Below are positions 645 to 20,518 of a stretch of 64,000 nucleotides of DNA, piece by piece. Every line of letters starts with the position of its first letter. The first letter of the stretch is position 1. The DNA is from Flavobacteriales bacterium. GTDB lineage: Bacteria > Bacteroidota > Bacteroidia > Flavobacteriales_F > PHOS-HE28. Both the position numbers and the translations under genes were made by a program. Location of the stretch: contig JAXLVG010000002.1 in NCBI GenBank assembly GCA_046329115.1, positions 3,714 through 67,713 of the forward strand, in the 5' to 3' direction. The notes beneath the pieces were generated by a model. The model was not told the origin of the DNA, did no database searches, and worked only from the letters and a program-made list of their open reading frames with translations.

Positions 645-2750
645 CTACGCCCGTTCCACGAAGAACATCTCCATCGCCCCCTTGCCCTTGGCCTGCACCT
701 TGCCGCGGGGGGTGAAGGTGAATGCTGGCGTTGTCACTTGTTGGTTGTCGGTTGTACGGCTGCCGTCACCCGGACCGCCAGCAGACAACTGCGGACCTGC
801 AACCAACCGGTACGTCGCTTCACTGATGTTCACCTTGCCCACCTCACCGGACGATTCCATGCGGCTCGCCGTGTTCACCGTGTCGCCCCAGATGTCGTAC
901 TGGAACTTCTTCACCCCCACGATGCCCGCCACCACCGGGCCGCTGTGCACGCCGATGCGCACTTCGAAGTAGGGCTTGCCCGCCGCGATCTTCCGCTGCT
1001 TGCCCTCCTCGATGAAGTCGCGCATCTCCAGGGCGGCCTTGATGGTGTCCACCGCGTGGGTGGCGTTCGCCACCGGCAGACCACCGGCGGCCATGTAGGC
1101 ATCGCCGATGGTCTTGATCTTCTCGATCCCGTACTTCTCCGTGATCCTGTCGAAGGCGCTGAAGCACTCGTTCAGGTCGCGCACCAGCTCGCGCGGCGTC
1201 AGGTTCTCGCTGAGCGAGGTGAAGCCCTTGAAGTCCGTGAAGAGCACGGTGACCTGATCGATCTGTACGGCCTGCGCCTCCCCCTTTTGCTTCAGCTCCT
1301 CGGCCACCTCCTCCGGCAGGATGTTCAACAACAGGGCCTCGCTGCGTGCCTTCTCCCGGCTGATGCGATTGCGCTGGGTGAAGAACACGATGGCAAAGAG
1401 CGCCACCAGGGCGAAGCCGCCCACGAAGCCGTTGCGGATCACCTTCTGCTTCTGGATCTCCTTGTTCTTCACCGCGGCTTCGGCGGCGAAGGAGAGGCTG
1501 TCGCTCAAGGCGCGTCGGTCGTTCGCGTGCTGGTACTCGGACCGCAGGAGCGCGCGTTGCTCATCCGCGGTCTTCGTACTGTCGCGCAAGGCCAGCAGAT
1601 CCGCGGCCATGCGGTGTGCCATGCGGAGATCCCCCGTCTCTGCATAGCGTGCCTGAAGGAAGAGCAGGAGCTTGTCCATGTTCTCGGGGTCCGGAACACT
1701 GCGCGCCCAAGCCAGCGCCTGCTCGGCCATGGTGATGGCCTTGCGGATGTCATTGCGATGGTACCACCATTCGGCCATCGCATGGCCGGCCGCAGCCTGC
1801 TGCTGCACGTCCTGATGTGCAACGGCCGAGCGCATGGCCTGCTCGAACAGGACCATCGCCGTATCGGTGCGTCCGGCCTCCTGGTGGGCCACACCGAGGT
1901 TCACGAGCAATTGGCCGTACTCCCGCGTTCCTTCCTGGCCGTGTAGCAGTGTCACGGCCTGCTGCCAGAGCTCCACGGCCGCAGGCTTCCTTCCTTCCTC
2001 GTGCAGCAGGGCACCCAGGTTCATGAGCGCCGTCGCACGCCAGGACCGTTCGCCGTTGCGCTCCAATCGACCGATCGCCTCACGGTACAAGGCTTCGGCC
2101 TTCGTGTTGTCGCCAAGCCGCTTGTACATCAGGGCCAGGTTCGACATCACCTGGGCGGACATCACTTCCTGGCCCAGGGTGTCCAGTGCGCGCACAGTGC
2201 GGTCATACCACGTGATGGCCACCATGTACCGACCAAGCGACTCGTTGATCAATGCGATGTTGTTCATGATGGCGGTGGCCAGGTCGTTCCGGCCGGCCTG
2301 CTGGGCCAGCTTCAGCGCCTCCTCAAGGTCGAACAAGCCCTCGTCCGCGCGGCCCATGGACAGGCGGACACTGCCCCGATTGCCCATGGCCGATGCGGCC
2401 AACGCCGGGTCACCGGCGCTCGTGGAAAGGACCAGCACCCGGTCGTAGATCGCCAGTGCACTGTCCGAATGACCCAGTTCCTTGTGCGCGTTGCCCACCA
2501 GGTTGATCGCCGAGCGGTGCGCACGTTCCATCCCTGATCGGCGGGTGAAGCGCTCCAGCGCACGGGCGTAGTGCAGGGAGCTGTCGGGAAGCACGTACAG
2601 GTACGCCTGGCAGAGATCGAACCCGGCACTGTACCGTGCACTGTCCGGCAGCACGGGGTCCGCCCATGCGCTGCGCAGGCTGTCGATGTTCTGCGCGTTC
2701 GCCGCCCAAGGGACCAGCAACGAGAGCGACCACGTCCAGCGCATCCTCAT
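645..2750 (-). CDS. Membrane-anchored class III adenylate/guanylate cyclase with a periplasmic TPR sensor region
   Basis: Signal peptide MRMRWTWSLSLLVPWAANAQ, TPR-like repeats, then a TM helix (GFVGGFALVALFAIVFF). The C-terminal CHD domain has LFTDFKGFTSL...IKTIGDAYMAAGG...YDIWGDTVNTASRMES. The ATGA overlap with the upstream gene implies translational coupling. Confidence 0.85.
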   Translation of the reverse strand: MRMRWTWSLSLLVPWAANAQNIDSLRSAWADPVLPDSARYSAGFDLCQAYLYVLPDSSLHYARALERFTRRSGMERAHRSAINLVGNAHKELGHSDSALAIYDRVLVLSTSAGDPALAASAMGNRGSVRLSMGRADEGLFDLEEALKLAQQAGRNDLATAIMNNIALINESLGRYMVAITWYDRTVRALDTLGQEVMSAQVMSNLALMYKRLGDNTKAEALYREAIGRLERNGERSWRATALMNLGALLHEEGRKPAAVELWQQAVTLLHGQEGTREYGQLLVNLGVAHQEAGRTDTAMVLFEQAMRSAVAHQDVQQQAAAGHAMAEWWYHRNDIRKAITMAEQALAWARSVPDPENMDKLLLFLQARYAETGDLRMAHRMAADLLALRDSTKTADEQRALLRSEYQHANDRRALSDSLSFAAEAAVKNKEIQKQKVIRNGFVGGFALVALFAIVFFTQRNRISREKARSEALLLNILPEEVAEELKQKGEAQAVQIDQVTVLFTDFKGFTSLSENLTPRELVRDLNECFSAFDRITEKYGIEKIKTIGDAYMAAGGLPVANATHAVDTIKAALEMRDFIEEGKQRKIAAGKPYFEVRIGVHSGPVVAGIVGVKKFQYDIWGDTVNTASRMESSGEVGKVNISEATYRLVAGPQLSAGGPGDGSRTTDNQQVTTPAFTFTPRGKVQAKGKGAMEMFFVERA

Positions 2751-4516
2751 CGGCGGTCCAGAGCGTCCAACCGTTCGCGCAACCGTTCGATCAGTTCGCG
2801 TTGCTCTTCGATCAAGGCCTGCTGCTCCTGCACGGCCTTCACCAACGGCACAACGAACTCGGCGTACCGCAGGCCGAGCATGCGGTCGCTGTCGGTCACC
2901 TTGTCCACCCCACTGAAATCATAGCCGACCGCCCTCGCCGCCGAGTCCACTTCCTGGGCGATGAAACCGGTGTAGCGGATGGCCTCCTTCTCCCGCCGCG
3001 CCTGTAGGATCTCCTCCGGTCGCTCGCGCGGGATGGGATGTCCGAGGGAGTCCTCGGTGGTGTCCTCCCCAAGGTCCTTCACGATGCGGGCGACATCCAC
3101 ATGGTAGGTGACCGGTCGAAGTTTCAGGATGAAATCAAGACCGCGCACATCCTCGCGCACATCGCGCTTGTAGCGCGCATCGCTGGGCAGCGTGGTCCAG
3201 CCGGCATACCCGCCGATGCTCGTGACAGCGTTGTTGCCCAGCCGCACGCGGTTGCTCCCGTCGAGCACGGTGCCGTAGCCGAGCGCGGTCGCATTGGTGT
3301 AGCCCGCTGCGTTCTGAACGATGGCCGCCCCCACCAAGGTGCTGTTGGTCGCCCCTGCCAGACCTGCCTGGAACCCGATGGCCGTGTTGTAGTTCTGGTT
3401 CGTGATGCCGATGCCGGCCTGGTAGCCGACGGCGGTGTTGTAGTCTCCCGTTACCGTTGCATTGACACCGATGGCCTGGAAGCCGACAGCCGTGTTGTTC
3501 ACCCCTACGGTGTTGTTCCATAGCGCGAATGCCCCGACAGCGGTGTTGTCGACCCCTGTTGAATTGTCCTCGAGCGCTTCAGCACCAACAGCGACGTTGT
3601 AGATGCCCGATGTGTTGGCATAGAGTGCGGTCTGACCCACGGCGGTGTTCCCGTTGGCCACGTTCGTGTATAGCGCACTGCTGCCAACGGCCGTGTTCCC
3701 GGTGCCCAGCACATTCACCCGCAGCGCGTCACTTCCCACGGCCGTGTTGTCCGCACCAACTCCATTGAAGAGCATGGCTTCGGAACCGACGGCCGTGTTG
3801 TCGCTTCCCACGGTGACGTTCATGGCACGGAAGCCCACGGCGGTGTTGTTGCTGGTGCTGAGGTTCAGGTTCAAGGCCTGGCTGCCTACGGCGGTGTTCT
3901 GGCCGCCCGTGGTGTTGGTGGCCAGCGCCTGGCTGCCCAGGGCGGTGTTGTTGTTCGCCGTGGTATTGGCCGTGAGCGCGTTCTTGCCAACGGCCGTGTT
4001 GTTGGTGCCCGTGTTCACCAGCAGGGCGCGGTGGCCCCAGGACGTGGTGGTACCGGACGGTGTGAGGAAACCGCTGCGCTCATTGTCCACCCGCACCTCC
4101 AACTGGTTGTTGTCCGTGGTGCCCAGGAAGTTGGTGCCGAGCGTCATGCCCGCATTGCCAGTGGTGCTCCAGCCACCACCCGCATTGATCAAGCTGGTCC
4201 ACGCTGTACCATTGAAGTACCAGAAGCCGTCCGTGGTGGTGTCATAGACCAGCAGACCGGTCGCGGGTGCTGCAATGGCGGTCCTCTCGGCCGAGGTGAC
4301 CCGGGGGATGAGCACACCGCGCTTCGTGCCGGTGATCGCGCTGCCATCGATATCCAGCAACGCGCTGGGGTGTGGCGCGGAACCATCCACGTTGATGCCG
4401 ATGTTCTGGGCACGGGCGGTCGCCATCCAGGCGCACACGCACAGCGCGGTGATCGCGACCTCGCGGCTCATCCCCCAAAGCACCGCGGAACAGCGGCGCC
4501 GGGCAATAACCCGCAC
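2747..4516 (-). CDS. Tail-fibre domain protein with a C-terminal peptidase S74 intramolecular chaperone domain and NTAVG-type repeats
   Basis: The C-terminus reads [14 protein letters not shown]...[12 protein letters not shown]...[19 protein letters not shown] plus a coiled coil. The N-terminus reads IGINVDGSAPHPSALLDIDGS...LLVYDTTTDGFWYFNGTAWTSL. A probable ATG start near 4470 (MSREV, signal peptide) is an alternative to the GTG at 4516. Confidence 0.8.
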   Translation of the reverse strand: MRVIARRRCSAVLWGMSREVAITALCVCAWMATARAQNIGINVDGSAPHPSALLDIDGSAITGTKRGVLIPRVTSAERTAIAAPATGLLVYDTTTDGFWYFNGTAWTSLINAGGGWSTTGNAGMTLGTNFLGTTDNNQLEVRVDNERSGFLTPSGTTTSWGHRALLVNTGTNNTAVGKNALTANTTANNNTALGSQALATNTTGGQNTAVGSQALNLNLSTSNNTAVGFRAMNVTVGSDNTAVGSEAMLFNGVGADNTAVGSDALRVNVLGTGNTAVGSSALYTNVANGNTAVGQTALYANTSGIYNVAVGAEALEDNSTGVDNTAVGAFALWNNTVGVNNTAVGFQAIGVNATVTGDYNTAVGYQAGIGITNQNYNTAIGFQAGLAGATNSTLVGAAIVQNAAGYTNATALGYGTVLDGSNRVRLGNNAVTSIGGYAGWTTLPSDARYKRDVREDVRGLDFILKLRPVTYHVDVARIVKDLGEDTTEDSLGHPIPRERPEEILQARREKEAIRYTGFIAQEVDSAARAVGYDFSGVDKVTDSDRMLGLRYAEFVVPLVKAVQEQQALIEEQRELIERLRERLDALDRR

Positions 4517-4525
4517 GTGTTAACG
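4502..4525 (-). promoter_or_regulatory. GGCAATAACCCG...CGTGTTAACG operator-like motif upstream of the tail-fibre gene
   Basis: ggcaataacccgcacgtgttaacg is nearly identical to 8605-8628. It shares the half-site CAATAACCCG with the 7-2-7 palindromes at 10332-10347 and 13434-13449 and with the inverted arms at 20477-20518. Confidence 0.4.
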
Positions 4526-6418
4526 CCCTTCCAGCTGCGCGATACGCTTCTCCAGCCGTTCGATGATGGCCTGCTGCTCCTGCACAGCCTTCACCAACGG
4601 CACAACGAACTCGGCGTAGCGCAAGCCGTACAGGCCGTCGGCGCTCGCCGGTCGGTCAACGCCACTGAAGTCATAGCCCAGTGATCGGCTGGCGGCCTCC
4701 ACTTCCTGTGCGATGAAACCGGTGTAGCGGATGCGCGACTGCTCATCGCGCGCTTGGACATCGAGCGGGTCGGTCTTGTGGATCTCCGCGCCGGTGCTGT
4801 CGTAGCGCACGTCCTCCTTCAACTGCGCGGCCAAGCCGTGGGCATCCACGTTGTAGGTGACGGGTCGCAGTTTCAGGATCAGGTCCAAGCCATGCACATC
4901 CTCGCGCACAGCGGTCTTGAAACGGCCATCGCTGTATGTGGTGAAGTTGACTTGCCCCTTGATGCTGGTGATACTGGTGTTGCCCACATGGATGCGGTTG
5001 CTGGCGTCGGGGTGCGCATTGTACCCCAAGGCCATGGCATTGGTGAAATTGCCTGCGGGATAGGCCAGATAGCCCAGGCTGGTGCAGTTGGTGGTGGACA
5101 CGTTGTTACCGGCGTCGTTCCCCACGGCAGTATTGCCGCTTTGTGAAGTGATCGTGCCCAAGGCATATCTGCCCATAGCCGTGTTGAAGGATCCAGAGGT
5201 GAGGTCTTCCATGGCACGGTGGCCGACGCCGGTGTTGAACTCCCCACTATATACCGACTCAAGCGTATATGCACCGACGGCAACGTTCGCCGACGAATTG
5301 TTTCCTGCGAGGTTGGCGTTCCCGCGCAATGCTTGATATCCTATTGCCACGTTGTAGTTTCCGGAGTCACTTTGGTAAAGCGTCTCGAATCCGAGCGCGA
5401 CATTACCGGTCCCCTTGCTTGAGTTCCACATTGCTCTGGCGCCAACCGCCGTGTTCGCCGTAGCATTGCTATTATCCAAGGCATTCGCCCCACAGGCCGT
5501 GTTGTCATTCCCAGCACGGTTGGAACTGAGCGCGTGGTGTCCTACCGCGGTGTTGAACTCTCCCGTGGTATTGAGTGCAAGGGCGAGACTTCCAACTGCG
5601 ACGGAGAATGATTGTCCTGCGCAGTCTCTCAACGCGGCAAAGCCGAACGCGGTACTCACATTGTCCAGCCCTGATGCAAGCGCATCGGTGCCCAATCCAG
5701 TGGACCATTCTGAAACGATCCCAGCGTGTTGATTGTTGACTTTGAAGCGCAACGGCATGTCATCCGTTGTTCCGATGAAGTGCGTTGCCGTATCCGTGCC
5801 CGCATTCCCTTGCAACCCCCACGCATTCAATGCACCATCCGCACCAGCAGGCCCTTGAGGTCCCGCTGCCCCTTGCGGACCTGTGGCACCCATGGGTCCT
5901 GGTGGTCCTTGCGCACCGGTGGCTCCGGTCGCCCCTGTTGCACCAGCTGGACCGGTCGCCCCTTGTGGCCCGGTAGCACCCACGGGACCTTGCGGGCCTG
6001 CGGGACCGGCCGGTCCTTGTGGGCCGGGCGTGTTGCTCGTTTCAGCATGCAGCGCATATGGCACACTGAGCAGTTGGGTCGTGCTGATGGTGACGCCGTT
6101 CACACGGGTGCGTGCGAACCAAGGACCATCGCTCCAGTCGACGGCGGCCCACGAACCGTTCACGGGCGTGCCCTGCCCGAAGGCGAGGTTCACCAAGCCG
6201 AAGTTGTTCGTGGTGGCGGTATGCTCTTCGCTATAGACCACCGGTCCGTTGATCGCGCCCTGCAGCAGCGACAGTTCGATGGCGGCAGGGACGTTCGCTT
6301 GCACCACACCACTGCCATCGCGCACGATGGCCTGGTAGCTGAAGCTCTGCGGCGCTTGGGCGCAAAGGACCGTACAGGTCACCAGCGCGCACATCAAGAA
6401 GGCGGTTCGCTTGCTCAT
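4520..6418 (-). CDS. Collagen-like (Gly-X-Y) tail-fibre domain protein with a peptidase S74 chaperone C-terminus
   Basis: Signal peptide, then a 60+ residue [64 protein letters not shown] tract. NTA(V/I)G repeats follow, and the C-terminus reads [13 protein letters not shown]...[12 protein letters not shown]...[20 protein letters not shown]. Confidence 0.85.
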
Positions 6419-6873
6419 TGGGACACGATGAACGGGATGGTCTGTAGTTCAGTGTTGCTCCCATCGAAGACCCGTAACCGATACGCTCCACTGGCCAGAT
6501 GATCGACGGCCCAAGCATTCGTCGAAGCGTTGATCGGCCATGTGTCGACGTGTTGACCGAGTGCGTTCAGCACGACCGCATGATGGGCCTCGGAAGAGGT
6601 GGTGCTGAGCTGCAGCAGGCCGCGCGTGGGATTGGGATAGAGCTGCCAGTCCGCGATGGATGTGATCGGCACGACGGCCGTGCTGAAGTCGGACGGGGGT
6701 TGATGGAAACCTTGTGTGGCGACCACGTTGGCGGCTGTGCCCGTTGCGACCACGGGCTCACCGATGGTCCATGCGACGCGCAGGCCACCGGACACCCCCT
6801 CGCCACCTGCTGCAGCGGTGACCTGCTGGGCGTGCGACCGGACCGGTAGCAGAAGTGCGATGACAAGGGTCAT
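6415..6873 (-). CDS. Small secreted protein with a T9SS type-A C-terminal sorting domain
   Basis: Signal peptide [17 protein letters not shown]. The C-terminus reads [15 protein letters not shown]...LNALGQHV...ASGAYRLRV...TIPFIVSQ, typical of the Por secretion CTD. The stop overlaps the start of 4520-6418 (ATGA). Confidence 0.7.
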
Positions 6874-6917: not shown

Positions 6918-8560
6918 TCAATGCTTGATGACGGTGGCGGAATGAACGCCCTGTGAGCGCACCAGCACGGTGTATGCTCCGGGCGCCAGCGCGAACAGAT
7001 CAAGGTGCACCAGTTGTTGGCCCGCGCAGGGTCCGCTCAGCAACCGGTCCAACACGCAGCGTCCGGAACTCTCGATCACCTGCAAGCGCACCGCGCCGCT
7101 GGAGCATGGGAAGGTCAGCTGGACATCACCCGTGGTGAACGAGGGCCAAAGCGAGAATGGCGCCCTGGCGGGCACAGGTTCGGCTTGGCCGGTGTTCACC
7201 GGACCCGCATACTTCACCATGGCGATGTGGAACAGGCCGTCGACCTCCGCACGGCCGATGCCCAGGACAGAACCATCGCTGCAGATGACCAGGTGATTGC
7301 AGGTCTCGTCCCCGCCGGCCTCATCATAGTCCGGGGCCTGGAACCCCTCGTTGTAAGAGAGGTCTGAACCCAGGTCTTCCAGTTGCTCCACGTGCCAGTC
7401 CTCCGCACCGGCCGCCGGGGGAACGTTCCCACCGACGAAGATCCTCCCATCATCCGTTACAGCGAGGGCGTTGTACGCATCCTCCCCGATCTCTGTATCC
7501 TGACCTAACGCGTCCAACACGCCCCCCTCCAGATCGAACAACCAGGCTCTCCGTTCCTGGGTACCCCCGCCGATACGACGCACACCGGCCACGACCATGC
7601 GGTCCTCTCCCAGCATTGAAATGGCACGCCCAGAGAGCTCATCGTCCTCATCGGGCAGCTACGACGCACACCGACCATGCGGTCCTCTCCCAGCATTGAA
7701 ATGGCACGCCCAGAGAGCGCATCGTCCTCATCGGGCAGCAGGGTCACGCCATTGCTATTGCCAAAGGTGGATGAGTAGCCGCCACCGGGATCCACATAGC
7801 CTAATAGCAGCGAGGAGTAACCCGAGAAGGCGAACGCGTCACCGCAGAAATAAATGTTCCCGTTGCTCGCGAGGGTGGCCGCGAGCAGTCTGCCTGCTGT
7901 CGCCTCGCTGAGCGTGAACAGGATCGATCCGTCGCCACCGAAGGAGGGGTCGAGGCCACCGTTCTCCAGATAACGCTCGATCACCACCTGGGTCTCCTCC
8001 TCCGTGGGGCCGGTATAGCCGCACAACACCAGCTTTCCGTCAGGCTGCACCAGTACTTCGCGGCACTCCTCGTGCACCGCCGTGCTGTTGATGTCGCGTT
8101 GGATCAGGCCCGTACCGTTGAAGGTCGCATCCAGCGATCCATCCGCCAGGAAGCGGGCGATGAACATGTTGCGCTCGGTGCCGAACTGGTCGTCATGCAT
8201 ATAGCCCCCCACCACGTAACGGCCCTGCGCATCGATCACCATGGAGCGGGCGAACTCCTCCGTCGGTGAAAGATCGTGCACCACCACCCCATTGTTGCCG
8301 AAGGTCATGTCCGGAGCTCCATCCGCCAGGAAGCGCAGGAGCACGGTACGCGAGCCGTCCACGTCCACTGAGCGGCCCACCACAACGATGCGTCCATCCG
8401 CTTGTTCGGCCCCTGTGACCGCTTGATCGGTGCCCGCGTTCCCTAAGGTGGGCACGAGCAATTTGCCATTGTCGCCGAAGGTGGCGTCCCATGCGCCAGT
8501 CTGGGCATGGATCGGCAACACCGCAAGTACCAGGATGTGGATGCAGAACGAACGAGGCAT
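6918..8560 (-). pseudogene. Delta-60 repeat beta-propeller protein with a T9SS CTD, frameshifted by an internal tandem duplication
   Basis: ORFs 7505-8599 (signal peptide plus delta-60 repeats FGDNGK...) and 6918-7616 (T9SS CTD) overlap. Both contain MLGEDRMV at the duplicated segment. The fused sequence matches the intact paralog 8728-10278 (ARSIALQPDGNMVVAGVKRPTGGSQ vs GRAISMLGEDRMVVAGVRRIGGGTQ). Confidence 0.65.
7575..7740. repeat. Tandem direct duplication (86 bp + 80 bp) inside a coding region
   Basis: acgacgcacacc(ggccac)gaccatgcggtcctctcccagcattgaaatggcacgcccagagagc(t/g)catcgtcctcatcgggcagc occurs twice back to back. The second copy lacks 6 bp. The net insertion is 80 bp, which is not a multiple of 3. 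Confidence 0.85.
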
Positions 8561-8604
8561 GGTGCGAGGTTCTGGCTTGCGAAGCACGCTTCGGGACAAG
8601 CGCA

Positions 8605-8628
8605 GGACAATAACCCGAGCGTGTTAAC
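8605..8628 (-). promoter_or_regulatory. CAATAACCCG...CGTGTTAACG operator-like motif upstream of the delta-60 pseudogene
   Basis: gacaataacccgagcgtgttaacg matches 4502-4525 at 22 of 24 positions. Confidence 0.4.
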
Positions 8629-8727
8629 GTGCCGGCATGCGGAGGAACTGGAAGGCCGCCCGGTATGGGGCGGCCTTCCAGGGCTTCATTCATCGGCAGG
8701 GGCGCATGCATGCCACCATCCGTCAGA

Positions 8728-10278
8728 TCATTGCTTCACCACCTTCACCGTTGAGTAGTGTCCAGCGTTTCCGACCCGAAGGCTGTACGTACCGATCGCG
8801 AGATCGTCAAGGGTGATGTCCAACCGACCTCCTTGGCCGAGCGGTTGCGACCAGCGACGGACCGTTCGACCAGCCGGATCGCTCAGAAGAAGATCCACCA
8901 CCGTGCTCGCCCCGTTCGAAAGCGTCAGGGTCGTCCGTTCGGATACCGGATTCGGAGCAACGCTCAATGTACCGTACGTTGATCGCTCCTCGATCGCGGA
9001 AGAGATATCATTCCGGTATTTGATGAGAACGATGTGGTTGAGCCCGGCGACCTCGGCATACCCGATGCCCAGTACGGAACTATCATTGGTGAAGGCCAGG
9101 TCGAAACAGGTCTCCTCGCCGCCATCCTCGTCATAGTCCGTCGTGACGAATGTTCCATCACCGTTGAGCTCCGCATCCCAGCGTTGGACGTTCCAATTCC
9201 GCGAGTCGGGTCCGTCGGCCACGTTGCCGCCGCCAAGGATGGCACCATTGTTCTGGACCAACAGACAGTTCCAGGCATCCGCGCCTTCCGCACTGTTCTG
9301 GAATGCATCCGTCAACTCCAGGCCGTTGGGATCGAACTGGTGGATGATCCGCCCCTGGCTTCCGCCCGTCGGTCGCTTCACCCCGGCGACGACCATGTTG
9401 CCGTCAGGCTGCAGCGCTATGCTGCGGGCAATGAGGTCAGCACCCTCCTCCGATATCCATGAATGGCCACTGGCGTTCCCAAAATCGGTGGGAATGTTGC
9501 CGGCGGCATCGAGATGCCCGAGGAGCAGGGACAAATCGCTCTCGCCCGTACGTGTGGCCAGACCGCAGAAATAGATGTCGCCCGCATCGCCGAGCACAGC
9601 ACTACGCAGCTCCTCACCCGAAGCGTCGCCGATGGAAACAAGCACCGAGCCGTCCCCTCCGAACGTGGGATCCAGGTCGCCATTGTCCAAGTATCGCTCC
9701 AGCACGACCTCGGTAAGTCCGGTGGCCGCGCCGCTGAAACCACACAGAACGATCCGGCCATCGGGCTGCACCAGCACTTCGTAGGCCTCCTCCGCGTCCG
9801 GGGTGCTGTGGATGTCGCGCACCAGGATGCCGGTACCATTGAAGGAAGGGTCCAGCGAACCGTCCGCAAGGAAGCGCGCCACGAACATATCACTGTTGTT
9901 CTCGGCCGCATCGGAGAATAAATGGCCGCCTACGACCAGCCGGCCTTGCCCATCGAGCTCCGCCGAACGGATGAACTCGCTGCCGGCGGCCAGATCGTGC
10001 TGTACCACACCATCGGTACCGTAGGCGAGGTCGGACGACCCATCGGGGTTGAGCCGCAGCAGCACGGTGTTGTAATGGTCGCCGTCACTGCTGCGCCCGG
10101 CCACAAGTATCCGGTCATCCGGCAGCACCACGGCGGTCACGGTCTGATCGTCGTTGCCCCCGCCCAAGGACGGTACCAGGACCTTTCCATTGTCGCCGAA
10201 CGAAGTATCCCAGCTGCCGGGCTGTGCGAGGGCGCCGAGCCCAAGGAAAGCCATCGTCGAAAGTGCAATGCTTCTCAT
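8728..10278 (-). CDS. Delta-60 repeat beta-propeller protein with a T9SS type-A C-terminal sorting domain
   Basis: Signal peptide MRSIALSTMAFLGLGALAQ. Repeats of the form SFGDNGKVLVP...DGSLDPSFNGTG... follow. The C-terminus reads LSVAPNPVSERTTLTLS...GTYSLRV...STVKVVKQ. Confidence 0.8.
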   Translation of the reverse strand: MRSIALSTMAFLGLGALAQPGSWDTSFGDNGKVLVPSLGGGNDDQTVTAVVLPDDRILVAGRSSDGDHYNTVLLRLNPDGSSDLAYGTDGVVQHDLAAGSEFIRSAELDGQGRLVVGGHLFSDAAENNSDMFVARFLADGSLDPSFNGTGILVRDIHSTPDAEEAYEVLVQPDGRIVLCGFSGAATGLTEVVLERYLDNGDLDPTFGGDGSVLVSIGDASGEELRSAVLGDAGDIYFCGLATRTGESDLSLLLGHLDAAGNIPTDFGNASGHSWISEEGADLIARSIALQPDGNMVVAGVKRPTGGSQGRIIHQFDPNGLELTDAFQNSAEGADAWNCLLVQNNGAILGGGNVADGPDSRNWNVQRWDAELNGDGTFVTTDYDEDGGEETCFDLAFTNDSSVLGIGYAEVAGLNHIVLIKYRNDISSAIEERSTYGTLSVAPNPVSERTTLTLSNGASTVVDLLLSDPAGRTVRRWSQPLGQGGRLDITLDDLAIGTYSLRVGNAGHYSTVKVVKQ

Positions 10279-10283
10279 GGTCT

Positions 10284-10311
10284 GTCGTGTTTTACCCCGG
10301 CAAAACACGAC
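10284..10311 (-). other. Perfect 10 bp stem / 8 nt loop hairpin 6 nt upstream of the ATG of 8728-10278
   Basis: gtcgtgtttt-accccggc-aaaacacgac. The loop motif ccccggc resembles the stems of the terminators at 27086-27120 and 30928-30965. Confidence 0.5.
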
Positions 10312-10326
10312 CAGCAATGAAGGTGC

Positions 10327-10347
10327 GGCAATAACCCGTGCGGGTTA
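10327..10347 (-). promoter_or_regulatory. 7-2-7 inverted repeat TAACCCG-TG-CGGGTTA (NarL/LuxR-type operator candidate)
   Basis: ggcaataacccgtgcgggtta is a perfect heptamer inverted repeat with a 2 bp spacer. It lies between the response-regulator stop and the next gene start. Confidence 0.45.
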
Positions 10348-10350
10348 GGC

Positions 10351-10989
10351 TCACGTCCCGGGATACACCTTCCGGATCGCCTCCATGCGGCCGCTCACCT
10401 GCAGCTTGCTGTAGATGCGGCGCACGTGCACGCGGACCGTCTCGGTGCTCAGATTTAGCTTGTCGGCGATCTCCTTGTACTGCAGACCAGCGGCCAGCCC
10501 ATCGAGCACCTGCTTCTCCCGTTCGCTCAGCTTGTCGTCGTTGATGCGCTGCTGGGTCTCCTTCTGGAAACTGTTCACCACCAACCTGGCGATGGCGCTG
10601 TTCATGGGTGAGCCACCCCGGTGGATGTCGCGGACGGCCTCGAGCAGCTCCTCGGCCGGGGTGCTCTTCAGCAGGTAGCCGGTGGCCCCTGAGCACAAGG
10701 CCTCGAAGATGTACGCCGGGTTCTCGAAGATGGTGAGCATCAGGTACTGCACCTCCGGCTTCAGGCGCTTCGCCTCCCGTACGGTGTCGATGCCGTTCCG
10801 CCCCTCCATGTTGATGTCCATCAGCACCACGTGCAGCTCCAGCTCGGGCAGCTTGTCCAGGTACGCATCACCGCTCTCGAAGACGCGCACCACCTGCATG
10901 TCCCCGGCCCGTTCGATGCGCCGGCGGATGAGCGCACGCAGCTCATCGTCGTCCTCCACGATGGCGATGCGGATGGGGGATGCGGCCAT
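10351..10989 (-). CDS. NarL/LuxR-family response regulator (REC + HTH)
   Basis: MAASPIRIAIVEDDDELRALI...VVLMDINMEG...GATGYLLKS..., then LSEREKQVLDGLAAGLQYKEIADKLNLSTETVRVHVRRIYSKL. The long ORF upstream of MAASP is an opposite-strand GC artefact. Confidence 0.85.
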   Translation of the reverse strand: MAASPIRIAIVEDDDELRALIRRRIERAGDMQVVRVFESGDAYLDKLPELELHVVLMDINMEGRNGIDTVREAKRLKPEVQYLMLTIFENPAYIFEALCSGATGYLLKSTPAEELLEAVRDIHRGGSPMNSAIARLVVNSFQKETQQRINDDKLSEREKQVLDGLAAGLQYKEIADKLNLSTETVRVHVRRIYSKLQVSGRMEAIRKVYPGT

Positions 10990-11018: not shown

Positions 11019-13370
11019 TCAGGGGAGCTCCATCCGCAGGTGGATGCGCGTGCCCCGGCCATCGCCGCTTTCCACCGTGAGGCGGGCCCCGCAGCGTTCC
11101 GCACGGTGCCGCATGTTCTCCAGGCCGTGCCCCTCCACCTTGTCCGCCCCGATGCCCGAACCGTTGTCCTTCACGTCGAACGCGAGCGTGGTCGGGCTCG
11201 TGTGGAAGCGCACCTCGATCCGCGCGGCCCGGGCATACTTGATCGCGTTGTTCAGCGCTTCGCGGAAGATCAGGTAGATGTCGCGCTTCACCGCCGGGTC
11301 CAGCGTGCGATCCGCGCCTTCGTGCGCGCAGTCGATGCTGTGCTCCACCTTGCCCCACTTGAGCATGCGCTCGGCATGGGCGCGCACGCGCTCGGTGAGC
11401 CCCGCCAGCGAATCGTGGTGCGGATCGATGGACCAGACGATGTCGCCCAGGGAGCGGTTGGCCTCCCCGGCGATGCGCTCGATGTCGTCGGCCAGGGCGG
11501 GCACGGCCCGCACGTCGCTCTGCGCGAGCTCCCTGGCCTCGGTGCTCAGCAGCACGAGCTTGGTGAGGTCGCTGCCGAGCTGGTCGTGCACATCGCGCGC
11601 GATGCGCGTGCGTACTTCGGAGGCCTCGCGCGCCCGCTCGCTCTCCAACAGCCGGGCCTGCGCCTCCAGGATGGCCGCGTTCTTCTCCGCGAGCGCACGA
11701 CGGCTGCGGCGTGCGTTGCGCAGGAGCAGGAAGAGGAGCGCCCCCACCACGGCCACCACGCCGAAGCCCGCGGCCAGAAACAGGTTACGCCGGCGGTGGG
11801 CCGCGAGCTCGCTTTCCTGCGCGGCGTTCGTGGCGGACAGCTCCTCCAGTTCGGCATCCTTGCGTTCCGAGGCGAAGCGGACGTTCAAGGCGTTCAGGTC
11901 CTTGATGCGCTCCAGGTCCAGCAGGCTGTCCTTGGCGGTGAGGTAGAGCCGAAGGGAGGCCAGGGCCTCCGTCGTGTTGCCGTTCGCCTGATGCACTTCG
12001 TGCTGCGCGAACAGGGCATCGCGCCAGGTCTCCAGCCAGCCTTCGCGGGTAGCGAGGGCGATGAGGGTGTCCAGGTCGCCAAGGGCGGCACGGCGATCGG
12101 CCGCATCGCCATGCGCCAGGATCCGCGCGTGCTCCACCCGCAGCCACGCCCGATCGATGCGCAGCCCGGGATGTTGGGCGAGCGCGAGGCCCTCCCCGAT
12201 GTAGGCCCGGGCCTGACCGAAGCGCCCCAGCCGACGGCACACCTTGCCCAGGTCCAGCAGGATGGCCGCCTCCTCAACGCGCTCGCCCTGCACCATGGTG
12301 ACCGCCTGCGGGCCGCGCATCAGCTCCAGCGCCCGCTGCAGGGACCGCAATGCGGTATCCAGCCTGCCCAGCTCCAGGAGGCAGGCACCATAGGTGCCCA
12401 GCAGCGTCGCCTTGACGTGCGCCTGTTCGACCCCCTCCAGAAGGTCGAGCGCCTCCTTCAAATGCGCCAGCGCCGAGGCGCGATCCCCGAAGTCGATGTG
12501 GAGCTCCGCGAGCTCCCGGCCGGTCTCCACGATCATGGCGTTCGACCGCAGCATCTTGGACAGCGCGTGTGCGCGAAGGGCGTCCCGCAGGGCCAGGTCC
12601 TGATCGGCCAGTTCGTTCGCGGCGAAGGCGCGCATGCGGCAGGCCGCGCGCTCGTGCAGGAGCGCGCCGGTGCGCTGGATGAGCGCTTCCGCAACGGCGC
12701 AATGGTGCAGGGTGCGCATGAACGCCTCGGTGGTGATGGCCTCCATGGCACTGTCCAGCTGCAGCTGGATGAGCAGGAAGGTGTCGCGCGAGGCGGTGAT
12801 GACCTCCGCGATGCGATCGCTGGCGCGTTGCACCGTTTCCGGGTCGGCCGATCCACCATACTTGGTAACGCCCAGTGCCCAGTAGAGGCCCGTGGCCGAA
12901 CGGTGGCGTTCGAACGCTTCGAGCGCCTTGGCGTAGTGCACAAGCGCCACGCTGTCCTCGCCTGCATCCTCGCAACGGTCGATGTACAGGCACCAATGCG
13001 CGTAACCCAGGTCCTCCTGCGGTCCATGCTGGGTGAGCAGCCGCAGGGCCCGTTCCAGTTCCGCCGCCTCACCGCCATAATATCCGCTCGTCTGCCTGGC
13101 CGCCACCCGGCGCGTGATCGCACTGCCCAGCAACGAAGGGTCGTTGAGGCGCTCGGCCAGCGCGATCGCCTCCTGCGCCGCCTCCATCGCGCTCACCGGG
13201 TCCGTATCGCGCTGGTACCATGCCAGGCGTTCCAGCTTGCGCGCCCGGTCGGCATCGCTCAAACGCGCATTCGCCAGTTCGCGCTGGAGCCTGCCGATGT
13301 TGACGGCCTGCGCCAACGCCCCGTGCCAGGGCGCAAGCAGCAGCAGGAGGACAAGGGCACGGCCGGTCAT
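11019..13370 (-). CDS. Sensor histidine kinase with periplasmic TPR repeats, HisKA_3 and HATPase_c (HK-A)
   Basis: Signal/TM1 MTGRALVLLLLLAPWHGALAQ, TPR-like region, TM2 LFLAAGFGVVAVVGALLFLLL, then RIARDVHDQLGSDLTKL and ...ALNNAIKYA...VKDNGSGIG...GHGLENMRHRAE. It lies directly upstream of the RR. Confidence 0.85.
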   Translation of the reverse strand: MTGRALVLLLLLAPWHGALAQAVNIGRLQRELANARLSDADRARKLERLAWYQRDTDPVSAMEAAQEAIALAERLNDPSLLGSAITRRVAARQTSGYYGGEAAELERALRLLTQHGPQEDLGYAHWCLYIDRCEDAGEDSVALVHYAKALEAFERHRSATGLYWALGVTKYGGSADPETVQRASDRIAEVITASRDTFLLIQLQLDSAMEAITTEAFMRTLHHCAVAEALIQRTGALLHERAACRMRAFAANELADQDLALRDALRAHALSKMLRSNAMIVETGRELAELHIDFGDRASALAHLKEALDLLEGVEQAHVKATLLGTYGACLLELGRLDTALRSLQRALELMRGPQAVTMVQGERVEEAAILLDLGKVCRRLGRFGQARAYIGEGLALAQHPGLRIDRAWLRVEHARILAHGDAADRRAALGDLDTLIALATREGWLETWRDALFAQHEVHQANGNTTEALASLRLYLTAKDSLLDLERIKDLNALNVRFASERKDAELEELSATNAAQESELAAHRRRNLFLAAGFGVVAVVGALLFLLLRNARRSRRALAEKNAAILEAQARLLESERAREASEVRTRIARDVHDQLGSDLTKLVLLSTEARELAQSDVRAVPALADDIERIAGEANRSLGDIVWSIDPHHDSLAGLTERVRAHAERMLKWGKVEHSIDCAHEGADRTLDPAVKRDIYLIFREALNNAIKYARAARIEVRFHTSPTTLAFDVKDNGSGIGADKVEGHGLENMRHRAERCGARLTVESGDGRGTRIHLRMELP

Positions 13371-13401: not shown

Positions 13402-13453
13402 GCAATCACCCATGCGGGTGAAGCGACCGGATCAACCCGAACGGGTTATGGCG
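13402..13453. promoter_or_regulatory. Divergent-promoter operator pair (GGCAATCACCC...CAACCCG-AA-CGGGTTATGGC)
   Basis: aacccgaacgggtt is a perfect 7-2-7-type palindrome. The arm sequences match those at 20477-20518. The site lies between HK-A and the divergent novel-CTD gene. Confidence 0.4.
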
Positions 13454-16390: not shown

Positions 16391-18457
16391 TCAGGCCCGT
16401 TCCACGAAGAACATCTCCATGGCCCCCTTGCCCTTCGCCTGCACCTTGCCGCGGGGGATGAAGGTGAAGCGTTGTCCGTTGTCGGTTGCCGGTTGTCCGT
16501 TGCTGCTGTCCGCCGCGCGCAGGATCGTGTGACCATCAACTGACAACCGACCACCGACAACCAACCGGTACGTCGCTTCACTGATGTTCACCTTGCCCAC
16601 CTCACCGGACGATTCCATGCGGCTCGCCGTGTTCACCGTATCGCCCCAGATATCGTACTGGAACTTCTTCACCCCTACGATGCCCGCGACCACGGGACCT
16701 GTGTGCACGCCGATGCGGATCTCGAAGTAGGGCTTGCCGGCCGCGATCTTCCGCTGCTTGCCCTCCTCGATGAAGTCCCGCATCTCCAAGGCGGCCTTGA
16801 TGGTGTCCACCGCGTGCGTGGCGTTCGCCACCGGCAGGCCACCGGCGGCCATGTAGGCATCGCCGATGGTCTTGATCTTCTCGATCCCGTACTTCTCCGT
16901 GATCCTGTCGAAGGCGCTGAAGCACTCGTTCAGGTCGCGCACCAGCTCGCGCGGCGTCAAGTTCTCGCTGAGCGAGGTGAAGCCCTTGAAGTCGGTGAAG
17001 AGCACGGTGACGTGATCGAGCTGTATGGCCTGCGCCTCGCCCTTCTCCTTCAGTTCATCCGCGACCTCCTCCGGCAGGATGTTCAACAACAGGGCCTCGC
17101 TGCGCGCCTTTTCCCTGCTGATGCGGTTGCGCTGGGTGAAGAAAACCCCGGCCAGAAGGAGCATGAGCCCGAAGCCACCTATGGATGCGTTGCGTTGAAG
17201 CTGCTTCCGACGCAGTGCTTCGGCAGCGATGGCGTCCTTCTTCTCCTGTTCGGCGGCGAGCAGGGCTTCCTTCTTCTCGTATTCATATTGGAAGCGTTGT
17301 TTGAGCAGGTTCCTCCGGTTGCCTTCGTTGACGAAACTGTCACGGGCGGCGATATATGATTCGTGCATGAACAACGCCTCCGCGCTGCGGCCAGCCTGCT
17401 TCAAAGCCCGGTACCGCACCTCACGCGCATCACGCAGGACCTCCAGCCCCCCGAACGCGTTGGCATGCCGCAATGCTCGTTCCGATGAACGTAGTGCCTC
17501 GCTCACCATCCCCTGCTGTAGCCATGAACGCGTGAGTTCCACGGTGGCCGAGGCCGCCAACATCTCGTCCTGATGCTCCAGCGCCAGCTTCAGGCTGCTG
17601 TCCAATAAGGAAACGGCCGCTTCATGTCTGCCTGCCATCATCTCCAACTTGCCCAAGCTGCCCAACGCCGTGGTGATGCTGGTGACATCGTTCATGCGTC
17701 TGGCGATCGCGAGGCTCTTCTCATAGCCATCCCGGGCCTCTTCAAGCCGGCCCTGCCGCTCCTTGGTCATGCCGATGCAGATCCACGCCTCCAGTGCGCA
17801 TTGTTCGTCGCCGATGGCTTCCGCAACGGCAATGCGCCGTTGGAAGTAGTCCAAGGCGATCGCATCCTCACCTTGTTCGTAGAAGGCCACGCCGATATTC
17901 CCAAGTGCCCTGGCAATGACGCTGCTATCGGACATGGCCTCACCGAGCTTCAATGCTCTTGTCAAGTAGTCGATGGAAAGCGCATCGTCCCCTTTGTAGC
18001 TGGCTACGTTCCCCAAGTTGTTCAGGATACCCGCCATCCGCCCGGTGTCCCCGAGCTGTTGCCAAATGGCGTAGCTGCGCCCGTAACAGGCTTCAGCGCT
18101 GTCCCAATGGCCCAGTTCGCGATGGCTGATGCCTTTGAGGTTCCAGGCGCTGGCTTCCTCCCTACGAAGTCCGATGTTCCGGAGCTGTGGGATGAGCTGC
18201 TCCACAGCTTGTGCCAGGCTGTCCGGTGCAGCGCCATACCGCCGTTCGAACAAGTAACTGAGCAGCGCTTTGGTCCGCACGCTATCCGGACGCGTCACAT
18301 CCTGATGCACGGCCAAGAGGCTATCAAGGTCCACCGGGTGCTGTGCCTTGCCACTGGACCCCACCACGGAGGACAGGACAAGCGCAGCTGCAAGCGAGCC
18401 GATGCGGGTACGGAGAACGGTCACGAACATGAGGTGCTCTTCCAGATCATCACGCAA
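16391..18457 (-). CDS. Membrane-anchored class III adenylate cyclase with a periplasmic TPR sensor (paralog of 645-2750)
   Basis: Same architecture as 645-2750. The cyclase domain DNA 16391 to about 17045 is more than 90% identical to 645 to about 1300. The start overlaps the HK-B stop by 8 nt (or lies 20 nt after it if MFVTVL is the start). Confidence 0.85.
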   Translation of the reverse strand: [688 protein letters not shown]

Positions 18458-20476: not shown

Positions 20477-20518
20477 GGCCAATAACCCGACGGGGTTAAT
20501 ACGCACGGGTTATTGGCC
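20477..20518. promoter_or_regulatory. 13 bp inverted-repeat operator GGCCAATAACCCG-N16-CGGGTTATTGGCC in a 75 bp divergent promoter region
   Basis: The arms are perfectly inverted. The site lies between HK-B (minus) and 20547-23417 (plus). Confidence 0.45.

What the first reader, a model, noticed from the sequence alone, without database searches (positions are those of the whole stretch)
645..6873. Translationally coupled operon: small T9SS protein, collagen-like S74 tail-fibre protein, S74 tail-fibre protein, TPR adenylate cyclase
Four minus-strand genes are joined by ATGA overlaps or a gap of 3 nt or less (6415/6418, 4516/4520, 2747/2750). Two encode tail-fibre-like proteins that self-process through a C-terminal peptidase-S74 intramolecular chaperone. 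One of them has a 60+ residue collagen Gly-X-Y triple-helix tract. There is no phage context: no capsid, terminase, integrase or baseplate genes. Cellular use of S74 fibres is known in Bacteroidota but poorly understood. Direct coupling to a cAMP-producing sensor cyclase, plus a candidate NarL-type operator just upstream, is an unusual arrangement.
Basis: partly seen in the sequence, partly recalled or inferred. Interest (0 to 1): 0.55.

Follow-up and report, generated by a model that had tools for sequence, protein, structure and literature searches.

The report
Regulated cell-surface fibre gene island
A high-GC Flavobacteriales chromosome carries two phage-tail-fibre-like, self-cleaving fibre genes inside a roughly 20 kb sensor-controlled gene island; one fibre is paired with a tiny secretion-tagged partner protein, and that pairing recurs widely in Bacteroidota.

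Summary
The four minus-strand genes and their domains are real. They are a TPR/class III adenylate cyclase (645-2750), an S74 fibre (2747-4471), a collagen+S74 fibre (4520-6418) and a small T9SS-CTD protein (6415-6873). The window holds no phage genes.

They are not one isolated operon. The ATGA overlaps at 2750 and 6418 are real. The "3-nt gap" at 4516/4520 is a start-codon error: fib2 starts at ATG 4471. The 48-nt gap holds a conserved palindrome, TAACCCG-N2-CGGGTTA, joined to a promoter-like TTG-N21-nnnTTTG.

This 7-2-7 palindrome occurs at 7 sites in the window (0.06 hits expected). All are intergenic and lie between 4.5 and 20.5 kb. They precede fib2, two delta-60 T9SS genes, two TPR histidine kinases and two DUF5122 genes. 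A NarL-type regulator gene sits in the middle. Related Flavobacteriales loci keep the sites and the gene order.

The cyclase link is specific to this clade (1 of 79 distant fibre loci), and the window's cyclase sensor domain has been swapped.

The broadest result concerns the small T9SS protein. In 63 of 85 metagenome cases and 7 of 8 genome cases it is followed at once by a gene opening with the fib1-type N-domain. None of 61 complete proteins with that domain has its own T9SS CTD. Phage relatives share only the repeats and S74.

The parts
645..2750 (-). cyc1: signal-like N-terminus, TPR region (residues ~20-435), one TM helix (440-458) and a class III adenylate cyclase domain (494-699). Its start codon overlaps the fib2 stop (ATGA).
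   Evidence: Pfam PF00211 E 1e-56 and TPR families. Hydrophobic segment and the motifs FTD504, GDA549, WGD621 and NTASR626. Junction sequence.
2747..4471 (-). fib2: signal peptide (…ARA/QN), fib2-type N-domain (21-100), 13 repeats of ~17 aa (NTAVGxxAL…), S74 intramolecular chaperone with SDARYK at residue 430, and a C-terminal helix.
   Evidence: The ATG 4471 start is supported by orthologue alignment and promoter geometry.
4472..4525 (-). Promoter/operator in front of fib2: 7-2-7 palindrome TAACACG-TG-CGGGTTA (4507-4522) plus TTG (4504-4506), 21 nt, TGCTTTG (4476-4482), 4 nt, then ATG 4471.
   Evidence: The same arrangement precedes fib2-type genes in L001, L006, L020, L044 and L167.
4520..6418 (-). 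fib1: signal peptide, fib1-type Ig-like N-domain (21-128), collagen tract, 9 repeats of ~17 aa, and S74 domain with SDGRFK at residue 496. Its start overlaps the small-gene stop (ATGA).
5828..6025 (-). Collagen Gly-X-Y tract in fib1, 22 triplets.
   Evidence: PF01391.
6415..6873 (-). Small T9SS protein: signal peptide, ~60-aa N-part (GG…V.WTIGEP…TQGFHQP) and a type A CTD. An alternative start is ATG 6915 (166 aa).
6918..8560 (-). Delta-60/DUF5122 beta-propeller T9SS-type gene (d60a), split into two ORFs by an 80-bp tandem duplication at 7592-7739.
8580..8629 (-). Promoter/operator in front of d60a: TAACACG-CT-CGGGTTA, TTG, N21, TGCTTCG.
8648..8681 (-). Perfect 14-bp GC-rich hairpin after the d60b stop; a likely terminator.
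   Evidence: z = -3.14.
8728..10278 (-). d60b: delta-60 repeat beta-propeller protein with a T9SS CTD.
10301..10350 (-). Promoter/operator in front of d60b: a perfect TAACCCG-CA-CGGGTTA, TTG, N21, TGTTTTG.
10351..10989 (-). NarL/FixJ-family response regulator (REC + GerE HTH).
11019..13370 (-). HK1: signal-like N-terminus, TPR region, TM helix, HisKA_3 and HATPase_c.
13403..13451 (.). Two palindromic sites in the divergent region between HK1 (-) and the DUF5122 gene (+).
13504..16311 (+). DUF5122 beta-propeller protein with a signal peptide and dockerin-like C-terminal repeats. It is preceded by a palindrome, N21 and AGCTTTG.
16391..18457 (-). cyc2: second TPR adenylate cyclase. Its catalytic domain is 86% identical to cyc1 and its TPR region 25% identical. 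It lies directly after HK2.
18450..20447 (-). HK2: TPR region, TM helix and HisKA_3 histidine kinase.
20480..20515 (.). Two overlapping palindromic sites, one facing HK2 (-) and one facing the DUF5122/Rax2 gene (+, about 20547-23417).

Best explanation
This is a chromosomal island of about 20 kb in an uncultured high-GC Flavobacteriales bacterium. It encodes envelope or surface proteins and is probably run by its own two-component system.

Shown:
- Two TPR-sensor histidine kinases, one NarL-family response regulator and two TPR-sensor class III adenylate cyclases surround genes for delta-60/DUF5122 beta-propeller proteins (some with T9SS CTDs), a small T9SS-CTD protein and two trimeric-fibre-type proteins.
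- Seven copies of a 7-2-7 palindrome (TAACCCG-N2-CGGGTTA) lie in front of these genes, fused to a promoter-like TTG-N21-nnnTTTG. They occur nowhere else in the 64 kb.

Inferred regulation: the response regulator binds these sites, which overlap the -33 element, and activates at least five transcription units. Two of them are [d60a, small T9SS, fib1] and [fib2, cyc1].

Inferred fibre biology: both fibres are exported by Sec. They trimerise on their C-terminal S74 intramolecular chaperone, which then cuts itself off at Ser496 (fib1) or Ser430 (fib2). The mature fibre has an N-terminal docking domain, a collagen stalk (fib1 only) and a 17-residue-repeat beta-helix. It would serve as an adhesin, as the Bdellovibrio MAT fibres do.

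Inferred partner role: fib1's Ig-like N-domain works with the co-translated small T9SS protein. That protein supplies the T9SS signal and/or a surface anchor, both of which the fibre lacks.

Inferred cyclase role: cyc1 is made together with fib2. Its TPR domain sits in the periplasm and converts some envelope cue into cAMP. This link is specific to this clade.
For: - Genes and domains.
- S74: Pfam hits above threshold, the SDxxxK dyad invariant or nearly so across 19 homologues, and the model's C-terminal domain matching MyRF ICA 7dc3 (prob 1.0, TM 0.60), 3gud and 3gw6.
- Operator: GGTTATTG 5 hits against 0.42 expected; the full palindrome with up to 3 mismatches gives 12 strand-hits against 0.06 expected. 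All are intergenic and face the downstream gene.
- Promoter-like geometry: a constant TTG-N21-nnnTTTG.
- Conservation of sites: the same sites precede fib2-type, delta-60 and HK genes in L001, L004, L006, L008, L020, L044, L071, L167, L168 and L171.
- Conserved order HK, RR, d60, small T9SS, fib1, fib2, cyclase in L004, L167 and L168. A fib2-cyclase junction also occurs in L001 and L006.
- Terminator-like hairpin after d60b.
- Small-T9SS/fib1-N pairing: 63 of 85 and 7 of 8. ATGA or 5-6-nt junctions in L004, L008, L020 and L035.
- Zero of 61 complete fib1-N proteins carry a CTD, and the family alignment shows no lipoprotein cysteine.
- Cellular, not phage: N-domain HMMs find 0 hits in 80 viral loci against 127 in 79 genome loci. 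No phage genes in the window.
Against: - No transcript data exist, and read-through from fib1 into fib2 is not excluded because no terminator lies between them.
- The promoter assignment rests on resemblance to the Bacteroidota -33/-7 consensus. The strict TAnnTTTG motif is almost absent from this window.
- That the adjacent regulator binds the palindrome is inferred only from its family and its position.
- Fibre trimerisation, cleavage and surface location are untested. The structure models are monomers, and the whole-fib2 model has only mean pLDDT 69.8.
- fib2-type fibres have no small partner, so their export route is unexplained.
- d60a, the first gene of the fib1 unit, is frameshifted here.
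- L020 has the same island without a cyclase within reach, so the cyclase may be a passenger.
Confidence: 0.6

Rival explanations
1. One reading: one translationally coupled four-gene operon (6873 to 645) with a promoter and NarL operator upstream of the small T9SS gene. In this model fibre production is hard-wired to cAMP synthesis.
For: ATGA overlaps at 6418 and 2750. No terminator-like site lies in the fib1-fib2 gap, and the terminator scan is at chance level. The four-gene order is conserved in L004, L167 and L168.
Against: A conserved operator and promoter-like element lies between fib1 and fib2, and the GTG 4516 start sits inside it. Upstream of 6873 there is no intergenic space or palindrome; the preceding gene ends 2-44 nt away. 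In L001 and L006, fib2 and the cyclase occur without the small gene or fib1. L020 has the small gene and fib1 plus further fibres but no cyclase.
Confidence: 0.15
2. A prophage, tailocin or phage-remnant tail-fibre cassette that happens to sit next to signalling genes.
For: PHROG 4636 (tail spike) and other tail families hit both fibres. tblastn finds tail-fibre and tail-spike genes in 79 phage records, and 423 relatives occur in IMG/VR.
Against: Phage matches are below 60% identity and cover only the repeats and S74, roughly residues 100/143-565. Both N-domain types and the small protein are absent from all 80 viral loci. No capsid, terminase, integrase, baseplate or sheath gene is in the 64 kb. 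No credible tRNA attachment site was found. More than 7,700 cellular homologues have signal peptides.
Confidence: 0.04
3. Trimeric autotransporter adhesins (type Vc), which is how JGI labels many homologues.
For: The NTAVGxxAL repeats resemble YadA-type head repeats. 'Trimeric autotransporter adhesin' appears as a source name for several hits.
Against: There is no C-terminal beta-barrel anchor. The C-terminus is an S74 chaperone plus a helix, which would be cleaved off.
Confidence: 0.03
4. The cyclase and the kinases are only syntenic neighbours. A pre-existing signalling cluster (HK, cyclase, RR, cyclase) received fibre genes by insertion, and the palindrome is bound by some other regulator, or is simply a promoter motif for an alternative sigma factor.
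For: L001 shows the bare backbone HK, cyclase, RR, fib2, cyclase. Only 1 of 79 distant fibre loci has a cyclase. The cyc1 sensor is swapped, at 24-26% identity against 55-77% among L001, L004 and L006.
Against: The palindrome precedes the fibre, delta-60 and kinase genes alike and is confined to the island. A 7-2-7 inverted repeat with a 2-bp spacer fits a dimeric HTH regulator, not a -35/-10 pair. The fib2-cyclase junction is kept as a 4-nt or 1-nt overlap in three lineages.
Confidence: 0.15

Closest known systems
Bdellovibrio bacteriovorus MAT (mosaic adhesive trimer) fibres, S74 subgroup (PMC10769870)
   Same: These are cellular, not phage, proteins. They have a signal peptide, a conserved beta-rich N-domain thought to dock on the cell surface, a long trimeric repeat body, and a C-terminal S74 chaperone with SDxxxK that cleaves itself. 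They occur as several paralogues.
   Different: The phylum differs. The N-domains are not the MAT N-domain (NCBIfam Bdello_MAT_N scores 16 bits against a cut-off of 60). fib1 has a collagen stalk. One class is paired with a T9SS-CTD mini-protein. The genes sit in a two-component regulon with cyclases.
Phage tail fibres and spikes with an S74 intramolecular chaperone (K1F endosialidase 3GW6, GA-1 3GUD, T5 pb1; PHROG 4636)
   Same: The repeat body and S74 domain are shared at 30-40% identity, as are the Ser-Lys dyad and the fold of the C-terminal domain.
   Different: The window proteins have no virion-attachment N-terminus. They carry Sec signal peptides and cell-type N-domains that are absent from 80 viral loci. 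There are no phage neighbours.
NarL/NarP 7-2-7 operators of Escherichia coli (heptamers TACYYMT inverted with a 2-bp spacer; from established knowledge)
   Same: An inverted heptamer pair with a 2-bp spacer (TAACCCG-N2-CGGGTTA), next to a NarL/FixJ-family regulator and HisKA_3 kinases.
   Different: The heptamer sequence differs. The site is fused to a Bacteroidota-type -33 TTG. The sensors are periplasmic TPR arrays, not NarX-type. Binding is untested.
Porphyromonas gingivalis FimS/FimR, a two-component system with a TPR periplasmic sensor that controls fimbriae
   Same: A Bacteroidota sensor with a TPR region between a signal or TM segment and a TM helix, linked to genes for surface filaments. 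There are weak profile hits to NF053520 for cyc1, cyc2 and HK1.
   Different: Scores of 44-62 bits are far below the 600-bit cut-off. The kinase core here is HisKA_3. Two of the sensors output through a cyclase rather than a kinase.
T9SS type A CTD cargo proteins
   Same: The small protein and d60b carry the CTD (TIGR04183/PF18962).
   Different: The small protein's mature part is only about 60 residues, and it is systematically paired with a large CTD-less fibre gene. I found no description of such a pairing in the searchable literature.

Membership tests
Peptidase S74 / intramolecular-chaperone auto-processing fibres | Pfam PF13884 domain above the gathering score at the C-terminal end | tested here: met
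   32.3 bits (fib2) and 31.2 bits (fib1) against a cut-off of 22.
Peptidase S74 / intramolecular-chaperone auto-processing fibres | Catalytic Ser-Lys dyad in an SDxxxK motif | tested here: met
   SDARYK at residue 430 in fib2 and SDGRFK at residue 496 in fib1. D, R and K are invariant and S nearly invariant in 19 homologues.
Peptidase S74 / intramolecular-chaperone auto-processing fibres | Fold of the chaperone domain | tested here: met
   Foldseek top hits are 7dc3 (prob 1.00, TMt 0.60), 3gud and 3gw6. E-values are weak (0.04-0.5) because the whole 574-aa model was the query.
Peptidase S74 / intramolecular-chaperone auto-processing fibres | Trimerisation and self-cleavage | not testable with these tools
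   Only monomer models could be made.
Bdellovibrio MAT superfamily | Conserved MAT N-terminal domain (NCBIfam NF053851) | tested here: not met
   fib1 scores 16 bits, E 0.008, against a cut-off of 60. fib2 has no hit.
Bacterial collagen-like protein | Uninterrupted Gly-X-Y tract with a PF01391 hit | tested here: met
   22 triplets; 45.9 bits against 27.2.
T9SS type A cargo | C-terminal sorting domain (TIGR04183/PF18962) | tested here: met
   Met for the small protein only: 31.2 bits against 23 and 31.1 bits against 27.
T9SS type A cargo (asked of the two fibres) | C-terminal sorting domain on the fibre itself | tested here: not met
   No CTD hit in fib1 or fib2. Zero of 61 complete fib1-N proteins has one.
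Class III adenylate cyclase | PF00211 domain with metal-binding Asp pair, Lys/Asp base-specifying pair, and Asn/Arg | tested here: met
   191.7 bits. The motifs FTD504, K-x3-D in KTIGDA, WGD621 and NTASR626 were read from the sequence. Enzyme activity is untested.
NarL/FixJ two-component system | REC + GerE regulator and HisKA_3 kinase | tested here: met
   The NarL equivalog itself is not met (122 bits against 250), so this is membership at family level only.
NarL-type 7-2-7 operator | Inverted heptamers with a 2-bp spacer, bound by the regulator | tested here: inconclusive
   The geometry and the enrichment are met. Binding could not be tested.
Prophage / tailocin cluster | Neighbouring capsid, terminase, sheath, baseplate or integrase genes | tested here: not met
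   None was found among the large ORFs of the window that were scanned.
Trimeric autotransporter adhesin | C-terminal YadA-type membrane anchor | tested here: not met
   No such Pfam hit even at E up to 10.
Single polycistronic operon 6873-645 | No internal promoter or terminator | tested here: not met
   A conserved operator/promoter lies at 4472-4525. Transcripts were not measured.

The most novel reading that the evidence does not exclude
The ~160-aa T9SS-CTD mini-protein may be a trans-acting adaptor. Its ~60-residue mature part would bind the Ig-like N-domain of a CTD-less, non-lipoprotein fibre matured by S74. It would then carry the fibre through the T9SS (hitch-hiking), tether it to the cell surface after CTD removal, or both. 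That would define a two-partner route for displaying phage-derived collagen-stalk fibres across Bacteroidota. In this clade, display would be switched on by a TPR-sensor two-component regulon that also raises cAMP.
Probability: 0.25. Interest if true: 0.8.

Novelty: new variant of a known kind. Interest (0 to 1): 0.5.

Why it matters
Bacteroidota genomes hold thousands of genes annotated as 'tail fiber domain-containing protein', and I found no functional study of them. This locus offers three handles on them.

First, a simple sequence criterion separates the cellular fibres from phage ones: two N-domain types that are absent from viral contigs.

Second, there is a recurrent genetic partner, a T9SS mini-protein, for one fibre class. 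That class has neither a T9SS signal nor a lipoprotein signal. The pairing suggests how such fibres reach or stay on the surface, and it can be tested with T9SS mutants.

Third, there is a compact, predictable regulon: a 7-2-7 operator, TPR kinases and TPR cyclases. It could show what cue switches the fibres on and what cAMP does in environmental Flavobacteriales.

Tried and rejected
- The sigma-70 promoter and terminator scan was at chance level and is not suited to this phylum.
- The strict Bacteroidota -7 motif TAnnTTTG gave 2 hits in 64 kb, none in the locus.
- A profile search of the PDB by sequence gave no hits.
- Foldseek with the fib1 N-domain gave only generic Ig-like sandwiches, TM at or below 0.48.
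- Rfam found nothing in 1-24000.
- The ARAGORN calls lie inside coding ORFs and are probably false.
- The RNA fold of the region downstream of cyc1 is not significant, z = 0.08.
- The word-indexed protein search with the 130-aa fib1 N-domain returned only fragments.
- Literature searches pairing S74, tail fibre or collagen-like terms with Bacteroidota or T9SS gave nothing relevant. The exception is one Tannerella OMV proteome that lists a 'tail fiber domain-containing protein'.
- PF26696 (PTL_trimer), which is precomputed for homologues, is missing from the local Pfam copy.
- A complex prediction for the small protein with the fib1 N-domain could not be run.
- I considered and dropped a CRP-type site as the palindrome's identity. 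CRP sites have 5-6-5 geometry, which does not fit.

Full report
**What is there**

- cyc1 (645-2750, 701 aa) has many TPR hits and a class III cyclase domain (PF00211, E 1e-56). It has a signal-like N-terminus and a single strong hydrophobic helix at residues 440-458. It also carries the expected catalytic motifs FTD504, KTIGDA, WGD621 and NTASR626. The TPR array is therefore predicted to face the periplasm and the cyclase the cytoplasm.
- fib2 and fib1 both hit Peptidase_S74 above the gathering score. Both carry the SDxxxK dyad: SDARYK at 430 and SDGRFK at 496.
- fib1 has 22 uninterrupted Gly-X-Y triplets.
- The small protein has a T9SS type A CTD.
- The ATGA overlaps at 2750 and 6418 are in the sequence.

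**Fibre anatomy**

An alignment of 19 homologues (A1) gives this order: signal peptide ending in AQ, an N-domain, a GNAGT..TNFIGTTDN segment, 16-17-residue NTAVGxxAL repeats, the S74 domain and a C-terminal helix. fib2 has 13 repeats and fib1 has 9.

The AlphaFold monomer of fib2 has mean pLDDT 69.8, rising to 80-93 in the repeats. Its C-terminal domain finds MyRF ICA 7dc3 (prob 1.0, TM 0.60), 3gud and 3gw6.

The fib1 N-domain (A3) models confidently (pLDDT 85.5) as a seven-strand beta-sandwich. It has no specific structural relative.

**Cellular, not phage**

- The family is very large: more than 7,700 hits, with source names such as 'tail fiber domain-containing protein' from Bacteroidota, Saprospiraceae and Chitinophagaceae.
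- Phage records match below 60% identity and only over the repeats and S74. PHROG tail-spike family 4636 matches the same part.
- In IMG/VR, 423 or more relatives exist, but matches start at about residue 100-143.
- I built HMMs from the two N-domain types and from the small protein's N-part. They find 0 hits in the 80 viral loci. By contrast the fib2-type N-domain is found 127 times in 79 genome loci.
- The rest of the window is ordinary chromosome. It holds GH92, an aminoacyl-tRNA synthetase, ClpP, DsbA, TetR, an RND efflux pump, alpha-2-macroglobulin and a SprB-repeat T9SS giant protein.

**The operon claim**

Upstream of the small gene there is no free space. A delta-60/DUF5122 T9SS-type gene ends at 6918, which is 44 nt before ATG 6873. 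If the ATG 6915 start used by other gene callers is right (P0149, 166 aa), the gap is only 2 nt.

All genes from 13370 down to 645 share one strand. In order they are HK1, a NarL-family regulator, d60b, d60a, the small T9SS gene, fib1, fib2 and cyc1.

While reading the intergenic regions I saw GGGTTATTG three times.

- A search gives 5 hits of GGTTATTG against 0.42 expected.
- The full palindrome TAACCCG-N2-CGGGTTA-TTG, with up to 3 mismatches, gives 12 strand-hits at 7 sites against 0.06 expected.
- Every site is intergenic and lies between 4.5 and 20.5 kb.
- Each site faces a gene: fib2, d60a, d60b, HK1, the divergent DUF5122 gene at 13504, HK2, or the divergent DUF5122/Rax2 gene at about 20547.
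- Twenty-one nt after the TTG, each of the six best sites has nnnTTTG or nnnTTCG (TGCTTTG, TGCTTCG, TGTTTTG, ACCTTTG, ACGTTTG, AGCTTTG). The second HK1 site has ACCTGCG instead.

From established knowledge, Bacteroidota promoters use a -33 TTG and a -7 TAnnTTTG. I therefore read these as promoters whose -33 element is overlapped by a dimeric-regulator site. The 7-2-7 geometry is that of NarL-type operators.

For fib2, HK1 and HK2 the start codon lies 4 nt after the -7-like element. This points to leaderless mRNAs and fixes the fib2 start at ATG 4471.

A perfect 14-bp hairpin follows d60b (z = -3.14).

**Conservation**

- Orthologous loci at 85, 71 and 65% fib2 identity keep HK, RR, (T9SS cargo), fib2 and a TPR cyclase.
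- L167 and L168 keep the whole order HK2, HK1, RR, d60, small T9SS, fib1, fib2, cyclase.
- The palindrome plus promoter recurs upstream of fib2-type, delta-60 and kinase genes in at least ten related loci. It is absent from unrelated Bacteroidota loci and from viral loci.

**The cyclase link**

Only 1 of 79 more distant fibre loci has a cyclase within 10 kb. L020, a close relative with the same kinase, regulator, d60, small gene and fib1 followed by further fibre genes, has none within the fetched locus.

The catalytic domains of all paralogues are 82-100% identical over residues 450-650, while the TPR sensors are about 25% identical. The sensors at the fib2-adjacent position in L001, L004 and L006 are 55-77% identical to each other but only 24-26% identical to the window's cyc1. 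The sensor part has therefore been exchanged while the position was kept.

A second kinase-cyclase pair (HK2, cyc2) lies at 16391-20447.

**The small T9SS protein**

Homologues of the small protein were fetched from metagenomes.

- In 63 of 85 occurrences the next gene starts with the fib1-type N-domain, within 0-130 nt. Many exceptions sit at contig ends.
- In the genome set the figure is 7 of 8.
- Junctions are ATGA or 5-6 nt in L004, L008, L020 and L035.
- Of 61 complete proteins with this N-domain, 36 end in S74 and 42 have a collagen tract. None has a T9SS CTD.
- The family alignment shows no conserved lipoprotein cysteine.
- The small protein's N-part defines at least 187 clusters at 50% identity. 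Nearly all are 150-180 aa, and a few long proteins carry 4-12 copies.

This supports a functional pair. Which way it works (anchor, hitch-hiking or both) is inference.

**Comparison with known systems**

The nearest characterised analogue is the S74 subgroup of Bdellovibrio MAT fibres (PMC10769870). The two share a signal peptide, a conserved N-domain presumed to dock on the cell, a trimeric body, and S74 self-cleavage at SDxxxK.

The N-domains here are not the MAT N-domain (16 bits against a cut-off of 60), so this is resemblance in working, not family membership.

The sensors weakly resemble the TPR sensor of P. gingivalis FimS, far below threshold.

I found no paper on these Bacteroidota fibres or on the pairing.

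**Verdict**

The single-operon reading and the operator location are wrong. The cyclase coupling is real but specific to this clade.

The added value lies in three things: the conserved 7-2-7 regulon, the N-domain criterion that separates cellular fibres from phage ones, and the widespread small-T9SS/fibre module.

Novelty: a new variant of a known kind. Interest: 0.5.

Noticed in passing
window 7592-7739: An 80-bp tandem duplication (1.9 copies, 98% identical) frameshifts the delta-60 T9SS gene into two ORFs, 7505-8599 and 6918-7616. It is either a recent pseudogenisation or an assembly artefact.
   Followed up: partly
window 645-2750 compared with L001 11731-13854, L004 11698-13758 and L006 11791-13815: The cyclase next to fib2 keeps a 90-100% identical catalytic domain. 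Its TPR sensor is only 24-26% identical to those at the same position in relatives, which are 55-77% identical to each other. The breakpoint lies just before the TM helix, so this looks like a sensor-domain swap.
   Followed up: partly
window 16391-20447: A second TPR kinase (HK2) is followed directly by a second TPR cyclase (cyc2), with an 8-nt ORF overlap at 18450-18457 if the longest ORF is used. L001 has the same kinase-cyclase pair upstream of the regulator.
   Followed up: partly
window 10-492 (+) and 16000-16311 (+): Two plus-strand proteins end in the same dockerin-like double repeat (DVN.DG.IKYTG..NDRDPIL). Neither has a T9SS CTD hit. This may be an unrecognised C-terminal sorting or binding module of the DUF5122 proteins in this island.
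   Followed up: no
window 8648-8681: A perfect 14-bp GC-rich hairpin with a 6-nt loop follows the d60b stop. It has no U-tract (z = -3.14).
   Followed up: partly
window 5001-5500: GC content drops to 0.57 inside fib1, against 0.61-0.66 in the flanks. fib1 also failed a GC3 filter of >0.72 that the neighbouring genes passed. This may reflect a foreign origin or a constraint from the repeats.
   Followed up: no
whole window: The canonical Bacteroidota -7 motif TAnnTTTG is nearly absent (2 hits in 64 kb, 3.65 expected). The promoters inferred here keep only TTTG, and several imply leaderless mRNAs.
   Followed up: partly
L020 6532-15864: A related Flavobacteriales MAG carries at least five fibre genes in tandem after the small T9SS gene. 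This suggests expansion of paralogous fibres, as seen in the Bdellovibrio MAT family.
   Followed up: no
P0165, P0167, P0292, P0293: The ~45-aa N-motif of the small T9SS protein occurs 4-12 times in a few proteins of 700-1550 aa. It is therefore a repeatable mini-domain in its own right.
   Followed up: no
window 15841-15939 and 54829-54924: ARAGORN calls a tRNA-Pro and a tRNA-Gly of 96-99 nt inside long coding ORFs. These are probably false positives.
   Followed up: no
window 49670-56455: A 2261-aa protein with SprB repeats, DUF7948, HYR-like and Ig domains and a T9SS CTD. It is a gliding-type giant adhesin and is unrelated to the island.
   Followed up: no
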